A stretch of 64,000 nt of DNA from Octopus vulgaris (taxonomy: Eukaryota), in assembly GCA_951406725.2 (NCBI GenBank), contig OX597827.1, forward strand, positions 25,296,001-25,360,000, in the 5' to 3' direction. Position 1 is the first letter of the stretch. Each line of letters opens with the position of its first letter. The notes under the pieces are model-generated. The model did no database searches and was not told where the DNA came from. It saw only the letters and a list, made by a program, of their open reading frames with translations. The translations under genes and the position numbers were made by a program. This document shows, piece by piece, positions 46,109-59,689 of the stretch.

Positions 46109-47308
46109 TATTATTATTATTATTATTATTATTATTATTATTATTATTATTATTATTATTATTATTATTATTATTATTATAATTATTATTATTATTATTA
46201 TTATAATTATAATAATTACTATTATTATTATTATTATTATCATTATTATTATTATTATTATTATTACTACTACTATTATTATTATTATTATTATTATTAT
46301 TATTATTATTATTATTATTATTATTATTATTATTATTTATCATTATTATTATTATCATTATCATTATTATTATTATTATTATTATTATTATTATTATTAT
46401 TATCATTATCATTATTATTATTATTATTATTATTATTATCATTATCATTATTATTATTATTATTATTATCATTATCATTATCATTATCATTATTATTATT
46501 ATTATTATTATTATCATTATCATTATTATTATTATTATTATTATTATTATTATTATCATTATCATTATCATTATCATTATCATTATTATTATTATTATTA
46601 TTATTATTATTATTATTATTATTATTATTATTATTATCATTATCATTATTATTATTATTATTATCATTATCATTATCATTATCATTATTATTATTATTAT
46701 TATTATTATTATTATCATTATCATTATCATTATCATTATTATTATTATTATTATTATTATTATTATTATTATCATTATCATTATCATTATCATTATTATT
46801 ATTATTATTATTATTATTATTATTATTATTATTATTATTATTATTATATCTCAGTTTATTTTGCTGGATATGATGGAAAGTGTCAGCAGTCCAAAGCCAG
46901 CAGACTAAAGTGACACACCACCATCATTATCATTATCATTATTATTATTATTATTATTATTATCATTATCATTATTATTATTATTATTATTATTATTATT
47001 ATCATTATCATTATCATTATCATTATTATTATTATTATTATTATTATTATTATTATTATTATTATTATTATTATTATTATCATTATCATTATTATTATTA
47101 TTATTATTATCATTATCATTATCATTATCATTATTATTATTATTATTATTATTATTATCATTATCATTATCATTATCATTATTATTATTATTATTATTAT
47201 TATTATCATTATCATTATCATTATCATTATTATTATTATTATTATTATTATTATTATTATTATTATTATTATTATTATTATTATTATTATTATTATTATT
47301 ATTATTAT
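46109..47308. repeat. Long compound (ATT)n/(ATTATC)n array interrupted by a ~70-bp Dong 3' end
   Basis: Direct inspection; 46846-46917 duplicates 47307-47377. Confidence 0.97.
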
Positions 47309-48455
47309 ATCTCAGTTTATTTTGCTGGATATGATGGAAAGTGTCAGCAGTCCAAAGCCAGCAGACTAAAGTGACACTTGTTTACTGGTCATGCTTCAAG
47401 AACCCTGAGAAGAATACTCGCAGTTCCAAGCAATGCTGATTTTTGTAGATGTTCTACCTTCACACTTGCACCAATCTTTTTCAGCCATGTTGGTAGTTGA
47501 GTGCTGATACTTCCAAGTGCACCAATTACTATTGGCATCACGTCTACTACTCTCTTCATTGACCACAACCATCGTATTTCCCACTTTAAATCGTCATAGT
47601 TGTTTATTTTTTCTTCTTCTTTCCCATCGACCCTGTTGTCACCAGAACATGCTATGTTGATTATCATACATGTTCTCTCTTTTTCATTCACCACAACAAT
47701 GTCCGGTTTCCCATTTCTTGTCGGCTGATCGCACTGAATCATTGCATCCCACAGGATTTTGCAATTCTCAATTTTGGTGACTCCTATAGTTTTCTCATAC
47801 CACGTCTTTGCTCTTTCTAGGCTGTAGTTTCCACAGAGCTCCCAATGGATCATTCTTGCCGCATTGTCATGGCGTCTTTTGTATTCGCGTTGTGCCAATT
47901 TCGGACATTCGCTAACGATGTGCCACACCGTTTCATTCCTCTCGCCACACATTTTGCATTTGTCAGTATCAGTAGTGTTGTCTATTCTGCACAACATACA
48001 GTTGGTCTTTAACGCTTGTTCCTGAGCTGCGCATATAAGTGCTTCTGTCTCTATCTTCAGGTCACTCCTCCTCATCCATAGCCACCGGTCCTCAGTATTT
48101 GTCTTGATGTTCACATCTCTTGCAAACTGATCATACATTTTCTTTTCCTTCCATGCTTTTTAAATATTTCTTTAGTTACACAATGTTCTGTGTTTCTGAC
48201 GCCGGCCTTCTTTCGTGTGTTTCAACAGTGGCTCCACGGCATTTTTAATATACCACCTTAAACTGTTTTCCTCTGCTTCGATACACTTCTGACAACTGAT
48301 CAAACCCCTGCAACCCTTTCTTCTGGACAAGTAACGCCTATCGGTGTCACTGTTAGGGTAAGAAGGCTCCGTGTACTGTCAACATTCTCCTGGTCTTGAT
48401 ATCTATTTTCTTCAATTCTCTCTTTTGCCATTTTATGATTCTCACTCCTATACTT
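47308..48455 (-). mobile_element. 5'-truncated R4/Dong-clade non-LTR retrotransposon (RT thumb, CCHC, restriction-like endonuclease, 3' UTR)
   Basis: ORF 47389-48138: TEALICAAQEQAL, CKMC..ETVWHIVSEC, YKRRHD, KPDIVV, PIVIGALG, LQKSALLGT; upstream DTDRRYLSRRKGCRGL; the 3' end runs into (TAA)n. Confidence 0.92.
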
Positions 48456-48599
48456 GTTGTTGTTGTTGTTGTTATTGTTGTTATTGTTGTTGTTGTTGTT
48501 GTTGTTATTATTATTATTATTATTATTATTATTATTATTATTATTATCATTATTATTATTATTATTATCATTATTATTATTATTATTATTATTATTATT

Positions 48600-57400: not shown

Positions 57401-57902
57401 GGTCTCTCGCCTGGCAGTGCTACCGAGGGGCTCTGCCTGTTCGAGATAAACTCTACCGGCACGGAAGTGCCGTCAGCCGGGCCTGCCCGAGGTGTTGCCA
57501 GGACGACGAAACCGTTCTGCACGCACTCGTCCAGTGCCCGAGTATTGCTGAAATATGGGTTTATGTCGAACAGCTACTGTCACGTGTATAGGACGGATCC
57601 GACTATCGGCCGAATCCATAGTGAAGATTGCCCCGCCGACCTCCTTTAACAAGGAGGGCGAGGCCGTTTTCTTGTGCCTAGTGGCTGTGGCGAAAGAGAT
57701 CGTGTGGTGGACTCGTTTGAAAGGGCTAAAGACAGACACTTTCCTCTTTGGTCAAGGCCTCATCAACTTTTTCAAGTTTCACTTGAAAAGGAAGATGAGG
57801 TTAGAGAGGAAAGTGCTGTCCGATAGCAAGTTTTATGAAAGGTGGGTGAATTGTGCGAGACTGGCCTGTATAAATGGACCAGTTCTCAGGTTTCGCCTGT
57901 GA
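54467..57902 (+). CDS. LINE ORF2 (APE endonuclease, reverse transcriptase, CCHC), frameshifted twice
   Basis: LNVRGL, SET, GDWN, YLDRV, TDH; SPGLDGLPYE, FRPITLLN, DQSKAFDRV, VRQGCPLS, YADD; CPRC..ETVLHALVQC. Breaks near 54955 and 57588. Confidence 0.95.
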
Positions 57903-59689
57903 TTTCAAAAAGGTAACACAAAAGGAGAAAAAAAAGGGGACTCTCTACACCCCTTTTTTGACCAGGCTCCCGTTGGCTTTTGTGGGGTTTTTTCCACCAG
58001 GAACCTTTCGAAACGTCTCCCCCTTTTGGGAGTTTTTCATTGTTGAATTTTATAAGTTGTTATAAAGATTTTTACTCGATGTTTTTAAAAAAACGGCAAA
58101 ACCCTTTGTAACCTTTCGTCCTGTCTTGTCCCTTTATGTAATCATGCGTGTCAGCCCTTGTGGCCAATAAAAAAGAATTGATTATTATTATTATTATTAT
58201 TATTATTGTTATTGAGGGTGTTAGGTTGATTAGAATGATTAGAACTTGGGACAAAATGTTACATGTTATTTGTTCCAGCACTTTACAATTCTGAATTCAA
58301 ATCCCACCTAGATCAACTTTGCCTTCCTTTCCATCCGTGGCCAATATAATAAAAGTATCCGTTAAGTATAGGGCACAATACAATCGATTATTCCCCTCCC
58401 CTGAATGTCAGGCTTGGGTTTGGAATTGCATGTTAGCACACATCTGGTGTCGCTAACGTGACTTCAAACGTTGTTACTGAATTTTCTATTTTTGTCGAAT
58501 TGATGTGATATTAGGAGCTGTAAAGTTGTTTGTGTTATAACAGCAGCGATATTAGATATTAATGAAGTAGTTTATAATATTGTATATTAGATGTAGGCTA
58601 AGCAGTGATGTATTAAATAAGCTAGGGGCATTTATATTCAAGACATTTGTATGTACTCACCGTATAAAAGACCATTGTTGCGAAAAGTCTATTAGGAGAG
58701 AAATTCTCCTTTCAGACAATGTGTGAAATCACATCGCGTTGGTCCATGAAAGACGTCATCTGACTACAGCATTCGCAGATCACAAATATATCATTACGAA
58801 CGTATTAAGTATAACAGTACACAGTTCTATCTTAATCCTCTCTGCTTAGCGCGTCTTTTATTAATTATTTCCAGTTTCACAAAGTTTTGCGTACAACTGG
58901 AAATTTATAATTCGTTGCTCAAACATAACTATTGAAGTACTTAGCAGGCTTTGAGCGGCGGATTTTTGCGAGTTGCTGCTGAGGTGTAGCTACATAGAAG
59001 GCATTAGGAGGAATGAAGCTGTGTTTTTTTTACCTGTACTTTATATCTAGCTGTTGCCATGTAACTTTCACCATCCGCGGTAGGTTGAATACAGTTCAGT
59101 TGTCTATGCTTAGGTAGAATTCTCGTATATATATATATATATCCAAGCTCTCAGTCCTAAGGTATCGATTTCATTGCTAAATCATTAATAAATCAATTAT
59201 AGATAAAAAAAAACACACATTAACAATATTAGCGAATTCTAACCTAGCTCTAGGTAAGAGTGAAAAATCAAAGGAAAAAACCTTGAAAAATTTATTTGTT
59301 AAAATGCGTAAAATAAACACACAGTACGAAAACGAAGTACTTGAATAGGAAATTCTTTTTAAATTGATGTTAAACCTTTTATTTCTAAAATAACAAGTAT
59401 TTGAACTGCGATTTCATAGGGTTTATGACTTGAAATTAAGTGTGTTTCATCTCTTCGATGTTTTAAGAGTTCACCATTTTGGAGTGATACTAATGTATTG
59501 AGCGTGAAGGGGTTAAAGTTGCAATTTCTTTCGGCAGAAGGATTTGAACTGATTGTGCAGAGAAACGAAACGACTATGCCTGTACTCATATTCGCTTGCC
59601 CACGCATACATACATACATACATACACACACACACACACACACATATATATATATGTATATATATATATATATATATATATATAGGTAA

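What the first reader, a model, noticed from the sequence alone, without database searches (positions are those of the whole stretch)
46109..58210. 12-kb retroelement community built on one ATT/TAA array with strict clade-specific polarity
Seen: successive ATT runs on + separate at least five Dong/R4 pieces and the 560-bp element (all minus, tails reading TAA) from two Tx1 elements and a family A SINE (all plus, ATT polarity). Established: Dong uses a restriction-like endonuclease on TAA repeats; Tx1 uses APE, with known microsatellite-specific families on TC and TTC. Inference: two unrelated endonucleases share one target on opposite strands, each with a non-autonomous passenger, and each insertion regenerates the target, giving a self-expanding hotspot.
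Basis: partly seen in the sequence, partly recalled or inferred. Interest (0 to 1): 0.72.

Follow-up and report, generated by a model that had tools for sequence, protein, structure and literature searches.

The report
Two retrotransposon clades share ATT repeats
Two unrelated kinds of jumping gene sit in the same ATT/AAT simple repeat throughout this likely octopus genome, almost always facing opposite ways, and each insertion likely splits and renews the repeat so that chains like this 12-kb one build up, a pattern known from silkworm telomeres but here with a new repeat target for one of the two groups.

Summary
Dong/R4-type 3' ends run into (AAT)n 9,434 times against 1; a 560-bp non-coding element 14,203 against 8. 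The young Tx1-type family runs into (ATT)n in 149 of 155 ends, and 11 of 12 full-length copies also have ATT at the 5' side, so the repeat is a target, not only a tail. Corrections: (1) family A SINE is not array-specific: 1.6% of 41,659 heads follow ATT, although those in arrays take Tx1 polarity 31:1; (2) one 'Dong piece' is a local duplicate, another is weak; (3) the cluster is not unique: arrays are clumped and co-oriented (36 of 38 neighbours) in 600 kb of unselected DNA, and 44 of 69 abut these elements; (4) about 11 of 25 truncated Tx1 copies lack a 5' array. Likely mechanism: the two endonucleases nick opposite strands, and each RNA's read-through repeat tail pairs with the nicked strand. 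Precedents: SART/TRAS in telomeric repeats; Kibi/Koshi; Dong. An (ATT)n target for Tx1 was not found in my paper searches. This scan had already reported the same system on other DNA. Real, moderately interesting, a variant of known kinds.

The parts
46109..46845 (.). (ATT)n array with ATC interruptions
46846..46916 (-). 71-bp duplicate of the 3' end of the next Dong A copy (local tandem duplication of array plus end, or assembly duplicate)
   Evidence: 71/71 identical to 47307-47377; best of 29 other copies 56/71
46917..47306 (.). (ATT/ATC)n array, same interruption pattern as the array to its left
47307..48455 (-). Dong/R4-type family A, 5'-truncated, CCHC plus restriction-like endonuclease region, (AAT)n tail
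48456..48599 (.). (GTT)n then (ATT)n array
48600..49176 (-). 560-bp non-coding retro-element (E560), fixed 3' end at 48600, short tandem duplication at its 5' end
49176..49277 (.). (ATT)n array
49278..50200 (-). degenerate R4-like piece(s), weak call, with an E560 fragment at 49598-49747
   Evidence: tblastn E 0.014 and a 67-85% similar stretch in L247
50211..50339 (.). (ATT)n array
50340..51390 (-). Dong/R4-type family B, 5'-truncated, (AAT)n tail
51385..51876 (+). 3' fragment of an older Tx1-type subfamily, joined head to head to Dong B without an array, (ATT)n tail
51877..52056 (.). compound array (ATT, ATG, ATC, GTT, ATT)
52057..52181 (+). family A SINE fragment, internal deletion, tail missing
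52182..52286 (-). 3' end of a Dong A copy, one TAA unit left
52287..52334 (.). (ATT)16 array, 5' flank of the full-length Tx1
52335..58180 (+). full-length young Tx1-type LINE: ORF1 about 52553-54425 with a CCHC knuckle (one frameshift), ORF2 54467-57902 APE-RT-zf (two frameshifts), 3' UTR with AATAAA, no poly(A)
58181..58213 (.). (ATT)n array, 3' flank of the full-length Tx1

Best explanation
This is a chain of Dong/R4-type and Tx1-type retrotransposon copies that sit in (ATT/AAT)n arrays in opposite, family-fixed directions, and it likely grew by repeated insertion into one array, with Dong predicted to nick the (ATT)n strand and Tx1 the (AAT)n strand. Shown: orientation and flanks of each family. 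Inferred from target-primed reverse transcription: the strand nicked first is the one complementary to the element's 3' flank, so the two enzymes use opposite strands. Inferred: the Tx1 RNA reads past its AAUAAA into the downstream repeat, and that (AUU)n end pairs with the nicked (AAT)n strand and is copied, because no poly(A) is seen and every 3' tail examined has at least five units even where the 5' side has none. Each insertion therefore leaves repeat on both sides (or writes a new one) and keeps the array's orientation, so chains and head-to-tail Tx1 tandems accumulate. The 560-bp element likely rides on Dong proteins. SINE A likely rides on some Tx1-type protein with loose targeting and lands in arrays only occasionally.
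For: Genome-wide exact counts: young Tx1 end followed by ATTATT 149 of 155; older Tx1-type end 111 ATT matches against 14 AAT matches at 11 places; abundant Dong family 9,434 AAT against 1 ATT; E560 14,203 against 8 (the two patterns ask for 6 and 8 repeat letters). 5' flanks: 28 of 30 Tx1 5' ends follow ATT, 12 of the 14 non-tandem ones; in 40 loci picked by the 3' motif only, 11 of 12 full-length and 11 of 29 script-called truncated junctions have 3 or more units, background 0.46%. Unselected 600 kb: R4 coding pieces have AAT 14:1 at the 5' side and 20:1 at the 3' side; neighbouring AAT-class arrays share orientation 36 of 38, against 57 of 97 for AC, 22 of 49 for ACAT, 7 of 16 for ATC; 44 of 69 arrays abut Dong, E560 or Tx1. 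3' tails of 5-28 units in all 41 junctions, selection asked for 2. A sister Tx1 family with nearly the same 3' terminus sits in (TCTA)n instead, on both sides; ATT-associated subfamilies group apart from it (SH-aLRT 94, quick tree).
Against: No nicking or RNA-end data; only contigs were available. After dropping 4 rows (one really full-length, one N gap, an inverted pair), 11 of 25 truncated Tx1 copies lack a 5' array and 3 more have only an interrupted one, so targeting is not absolute or the target is often deleted. Two full-length copies follow (TTC)n (L036, L315). About a tenth of older Tx1-type ends in these arrays have the Dong polarity. No sequence shared between E560 and the five Dong stretches tested beyond shuffle level, and no shared 3' hairpin seen by single-sequence folding. 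Dong is the 3' neighbour of young Tx1 in only 3 of 29 loci, another Tx1 in 8: no sign that the two clades are paired.
Confidence: 0.75

Rival explanations
1. RNA-tail selection: the Tx1 endonuclease is loosely specific for AT-rich DNA and the (AUU)n end of the RNA alone selects the site and the direction by pairing; the ATT habit is self-perpetuating because each copy sits upstream of an array.
For: Minimum tail of five units and no poly(A); several truncated copies have only TTATT or nothing at the 5' side; SINE A with a Tx1-like tail but no fixed repeat tail inserts broadly, with a 31:1 polarity bias when in arrays; sister families share the 3' terminus yet differ in repeat.
Against: In SART/TRAS, swapping the endonuclease domain swaps the target (PMC7265360, Introduction); PMC4494074 states that the endonuclease mainly sets the target (passage). 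Full-length copies have an exact ATT|CCTTCC junction in nearly all cases.
Confidence: 0.3
2. The repeats are only element-encoded tails; later elements pile up passively in AT-rich or tolerated DNA, and the polarity is a by-product of tails.
For: Tails are always present; 11 of 25 truncated Tx1 copies have no 5' array; old Dong and Tx1 copies often lack one flank.
Against: 5' flanks carry the family's own repeat phase far above the 0.46% background; tails alone would not make neighbouring arrays co-oriented 36 of 38 across two clades with opposite tails.
Confidence: 0.07
3. The 12-kb chain arose mainly by local duplication, unequal crossing-over between arrays or mis-assembly, not by independent insertions.
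For: The first Dong piece and its array are a perfect duplicate; head-to-tail Tx1 tandems with about 5.87-kb spacing exist on several contigs.
Against: The other parts belong to different families of different age (Dong A about 89%, Dong B about 86%, old Tx1 about 80%, E560 and young Tx1 97-99% to their best relatives) and are not copies of each other.
Confidence: 0.08

Closest known systems
SART and TRAS in silkworm (TTAGG)n telomeric repeats (PMC7265360 Introduction; PMC10088271 passages)
   Same: Two non-LTR families insert in one tandem repeat in opposite orientations, at sites on opposite strands, and build arrays.
   Different: SART and TRAS are both R1-clade APE elements at telomeres; here one partner has a restriction-like and the other an APE endonuclease, and the target is a dispersed trinucleotide microsatellite.
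Kibi (TC)n, Koshi (TTC)n and crocodilian (TTCC)n/(TTTC)n Tx1 families (PMC4494074 passages; PMC3812793 passages); Tx1-1_ACar in telomeric repeats (PMC10088271 passage)
   Same: Two-ORF APE-RT element with microsatellite on both flanks; two copies here even follow (TTC)n.
   Different: Target is (ATT)n, with a sister family in (TCTA)n; neither motif is listed in the passages read. Descent from the Kibi/Koshi lineage was not testable (no reference sequences at hand).
Dong (Bombyx, Anopheles, Biomphalaria) in TAA repeats (PMC3812793 passage); Dong-R4 and L1-Tx1 reported abundant and recently active in Octopus (PMC13282606 parts 1-2, PMC8967140 passages)
   Same: RT plus CCHC plus restriction-like endonuclease, (TAA)n flanks.
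   Different: Here at least eight different 3' UTR families share the target, and a 560-bp non-coding element with over 14,000 copies follows the same rule.
R1 and R2 in 28S rDNA; EhLINE/EhSINE (both recalled, not read)
   Same: APE and RLE elements sharing one multicopy target; an R4-clade LINE moving a short passenger.
   Different: R1 and R2 use separate sites in the same orientation; EhSINEs share 3' sequence with their LINE, which was not found for E560.

Membership tests
Tx1 clade (L1 group) | ORF2 with N-terminal APE, RT and C-terminal zinc domain | tested here: met
   Pfam Exo_endo_phos, RVT_1, zf-RVT in the window copy and in an intact 1,144-aa copy; best solved relative is L1 ORF2p, E 5.6e-51
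Tx1 clade (L1 group) | ORF1 with a gag-like CCHC knuckle (recalled as a Tx1 trait) | tested here: inconclusive
   C-x2-C-x4-H-x4-C motif visible; Pfam zf-CCHC only E 0.079, below cut-off
Tx1 clade (L1 group) | RT phylogeny with named Tx1 references | not testable with these tools
   none of the 120 listed homologues is named Tx1; no Repbase sequences available
Microsatellite-specific Tx1 (Kibi/Koshi type) | Repeat at more than 20% of flanks, both ends (criterion in PMC4494074) | tested here: met
   149 of 155 3' ends; 11 of 12 full-length and 11 of 29 truncated 5' ends
R4 clade / Dong | RT followed by CCHC and PD-(D/E)xK endonuclease, no APE | tested here: met
   motifs in window pieces and in L252; best solved relatives are R2 proteins; window pieces match L252 at E 3e-49 and 2e-27
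R4 clade / Dong | Insertion in (TAA)n | tested here: met
   26 of 30 family A 3' ends by eye; 9,434:1 for the abundant family; 14:1 at 5' sides
R4 clade / Dong | RT phylogeny separating R4 from R2, NeSL, HERO | not tested
   no named references; the label rests on target, motifs and papers on Octopus repeats
Passenger of Dong (E560) | Same target and polarity, fixed 3' end, variable 5' end | tested here: met
   ATT on the left in 30 of 30 and on the right in 27 of 30 by eye, left end fixed, right end ragged with short tandem duplications as in full-length Dong 5' ends; 14,203:8
Passenger of Dong (E560) | 3' sequence shared with the partner LINE | tested here: not met
   no alignment above shuffles with five Dong stretches; none of the 3' UTRs printed ends like E560; an unseen partner family is not excluded
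SINE (tRNA/5S/7SL/snRNA head) for E560 | Small-RNA-derived head | tested here: inconclusive
   no Rfam match at E up to 1 over E560; ARAGORN not run
Passenger of the ATT-specific Tx1 (SINE A) | 3' tail shared with the LINE | tested here: met
   SINE A tail aligns with the TCTA-family end, 0 of 1000 shuffles as good, and weakly with the window Tx1 end, 11 of 1000
Passenger of the ATT-specific Tx1 (SINE A) | Same target specificity | tested here: not met
   659 of 41,659 heads follow ATT (1.6%, 4.7-fold over 0.34% background), 21 follow AAT; 5 of 57 heads and 1 of 55 type-1 tails in unselected DNA

The most novel reading that the evidence does not exclude
These retrotransposons are the main makers, not just occupants, of the genome's commonest trinucleotide microsatellite: each RNA carries its repeat as a read-through tail that both aims the insertion and writes five or more new units, so a Tx1 lineage can change target (ATT versus TCTA) simply by landing once in a new repeat, without first changing its endonuclease, while two unrelated enzymes divide one repeat by strand.
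Probability: 0.25. Interest if true: 0.65.

Novelty: new variant of a known kind. Interest (0 to 1): 0.4.

Why it matters
It adds (ATT)n, and in passing (TCTA)n, to the targets of Tx1-type elements and supplies a natural pair of close sister enzymes (about 69% identical in the ORF2 C-terminal third) with intact copies, so the old question of whether the endonuclease or the RNA end picks a microsatellite can be tested by swaps. It also explains why AAT microsatellites in this genome are abundant, clumped and co-oriented, and warns that most of them are flanked by repeats, which matters for marker design and assembly. It is not a new mechanism class: opposite-orientation sharing of a repeat is known from SART/TRAS.

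Tried and rejected
Rfam scan of 44000-59000: only simple-repeat noise, nothing on E560. Search for an autonomous partner of E560: no match to Dong, Tx1 or SINE stretches, no coding remnant seen. Single-sequence folding of eight 3' ends: only Dong B folds better than shuffles (z -3.9); no common hairpin could be claimed. Expression: no RNA holder listed; contigs of four runs cover the Tx1 3' part but cannot show RNA ends. Target-site duplications cannot be delimited inside arrays. The endonuclease domain of the TCTA family was only partly recovered (residues 77-284, broken), so no specificity residues were compared. The careful tree did not finish; the quick tree is cited, 4 of its 25 rows are duplicates, and 2 rows under 200 residues were left out. 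A special pairing of Dong and Tx1 was considered and not supported. In one search a few library hits were mislabelled (E560 ends counted as Dong, two doubtful short hits), so 44 of 69 is approximate. Paper searches returned no report of an ATT-specific Tx1 or of Dong/Tx1 opposite polarity; Kojima and Fujiwara 2004, Repbase Reports and the supplement of PMC4494074 could not be read and may list such a target.
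Full report
Setting. The window is G000:C14:25296001-25360000 in a 2.8-Gb genome. An octopod host is likely: the closest named homologue of the Tx1 protein is from Argonauta hians (72%), and Dong-R4 and L1-Tx1 are described as abundant in Octopus (PMC13282606, parts 1-2 of 3 read; PMC8967140, passages).

The observation. Ten merged ATT-phase runs and no AAT-phase run lie on + in 46109-58207. Between them are two solid 5'-truncated Dong/R4-type copies of different families (47307-48455, 50340-51390), a short Dong A 3' end (52182-52286), a weak degenerate R4-like stretch (49278-50200, E 0.014), and a 71-bp piece (46846-46916) identical to the end of the next copy including its private changes, where the best of 29 other copies scores 56 of 71. 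So 'at least five Dong pieces' means three clear insertions, one weak one and one duplicate. All are on minus. The 560-bp element (E560) is on minus by its fixed end and ragged other end. On plus lie an older Tx1-type 3' fragment (51385-51876), joined head to head to Dong B without an array, a SINE A fragment, and a full-length Tx1-type element (52335-58180) with APE, RT and zf-RVT and three frameshifts.

Polarity across the genome. Exact-pattern counts are whole-genome. The young Tx1 end occurs 155 times and is followed by ATTATT 149 times. The older Tx1-type terminus runs into ATT in 111 matches and into AAT in 14 matches at 11 places. The most abundant Dong family (not in the window) runs into AAT 9,434 times and ATT once. 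E560 runs into AATAAT 14,203 times and into an ATT run 8 times. For the window's own Dong A, 26 of 30 3' ends carry AAT by eye and none runs directly into an ATT array.

Target or tail. 28 of 30 Tx1 5' ends follow ATT; 16 of the 30 are in head-to-tail tandems, and of the 14 others 12 follow ATT, one TTC and one a gap. In 40 loci chosen by the 3' motif alone (41 junctions), 11 of 12 full-length copies and 11 of 29 script-called truncated ones have three or more units at the 5' junction, background 0.46%. Removing one row that is really full-length and follows ATT, one gap and an inverted pair leaves 25 truncated copies: 11 with an array, 3 with an interrupted one, 11 without; two of the last join directly to truncated E560 or Dong ends, like the window's junction, which suggests loss of target at the 5' join. 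All 41 3' tails have at least five units and no poly(A), though an AATAAA lies just upstream. E560 has ATT on its left in 30 of 30 and on its right in 27 of 30. In 600 kb taken at fixed round coordinates, R4 coding pieces have AAT against ATT 14:1 at 5' and 20:1 at 3'. The repeat is thus a real target for both clades, and probably also a copied RNA tail.

The SINE. Of 41,659 exact SINE A heads, 659 follow ATT and 21 follow AAT; background is 0.34% for each. That is 4.7-fold enrichment with Tx1 polarity and depletion for the opposite, but 98% of copies are elsewhere. Its type-1 tail resembles the Tx1 terminus, best that of the TCTA family (0 of 1000 shuffles; 11 of 1000 for the window element). 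It likely uses Tx1-type proteins but is not a specific passenger of this system.

Is the cluster special. The unselected 600 kb holds 69 AAT-class arrays, more than any other trinucleotide, overdispersed (variance/mean 2.6; one 10-kb stretch has 9), and neighbours share orientation 36 of 38, whereas AC, AG, ATC and ACAT arrays do not depart from chance; AGAT arrays, the sister family's target, lean the same way, 16 of 21. About 44 of 69 arrays abut Dong, E560 or Tx1. The window's chain is a large example of a common product. Dong is not preferentially beside Tx1 (3 of 29; another Tx1 8 of 29).

Sister family. A related Tx1 family with nearly the same 3' terminus sits in (TCTA)n on both sides (2,695 candidates). 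In a quick tree of ORF2 residues 760-1130 the young, old and third ATT-associated subfamilies group together (SH-aLRT 94) apart from it. Intact 1,144-aa ORF2 copies of the ATT family exist, some in tandems of about 5.87-kb period.

Mechanism. Shown: flanks and orientation. From established target-primed reverse transcription (recalled): the first nick is on the strand complementary to the element's 3' flank, so Dong uses the (ATT)n strand and Tx1 the (AAT)n strand. An A-rich primer cannot pair with poly(A), so the Tx1 RNA likely primes through a read-through (AUU)n end; this is inferred. Each insertion leaves repeat on both sides in the same orientation, which accounts for co-oriented chains. 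Whether the endonuclease or the RNA end sets the choice is open; SART/TRAS swaps favour the endonuclease (PMC7265360, abstract and Introduction read).

Comparison. Opposite-orientation sharing of a repeat is known for SART/TRAS, microsatellite-specific Tx1 for Kibi, Koshi and crocodilian families (PMC4494074, passages), and TAA targeting for Dong (PMC3812793, passages; that review groups Dong with APE elements, while the proteins here are restriction-like). PMC4640811 (passages) gives the clade background. What I did not find in seven searches is an (ATT)n-specific Tx1 or an RLE/APE pair dividing one microsatellite by strand; key sources were not readable. Earlier notes of this scan describe the same system on other DNA; they are not independent support, and the numbers above are my own.

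Verdict. Real, genome-wide, well supported at the level of sequence; the SINE claim and the uniqueness of the hotspot are overstated. New variant of known kinds, interest 0.4.

Noticed in passing
L169, L121, L261-L298 (e.g. G000:C13:49998600-50002060): Sister Tx1-type family inserted in (TCTA)n/(TAGA)n with fixed polarity, both flanks, 2,695 search candidates.
   Followed up: partly
G000:C4:93.80-93.84 Mb, C1:202.32-202.35 Mb, C50, C47, C13:65.48 Mb: Head-to-tail tandems of full-length young Tx1 (period about 5.87 kb, spacers of 3-8 ATT units), several with intact ORF2.
   Followed up: partly
L036, L315: Two full-length ATT-family copies follow a (TTC)n run, the Koshi target, one base away from (TTA)n.
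   Followed up: no
L145, L167; window 49156-49176; L101, L107: Full-length Dong copies and E560 both show short tandem duplications of their first 20-25 bases at the 5' junction.
   Followed up: partly
loci (L027, L070, L080, L113, L145, L152, L153, L174): At least eight Dong/R4 families with unrelated 3' UTRs all end in (AAT)n.
   Followed up: partly
L342 (G000:C9:111571480-111571549): Two very short Tx1 3' ends back to back as an inverted pair.
   Followed up: no
window 20631-21186: Second E560 copy, opposite strand, flanked by AAT runs on both sides, same polarity rule.
   Followed up: yes
window 45625-46025: A second SINE family (B) on minus just left of the chain; near AAT arrays elsewhere it tends to face the Dong way (few cases).
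   Followed up: no
window 12488-12880, 7613-7964, 29422-29704, 37226-37464: SINE A forms dimers and tandem units (184-bp period) with at least three different tails.
   Followed up: no
window 44793-45163: Tandem duplication of about 180 bp, 92% identical.
   Followed up: no
window 62403-63254 (-): 283-codon open frame, glutamine- and threonine-rich, no Pfam match; possibly a host exon.
   Followed up: no
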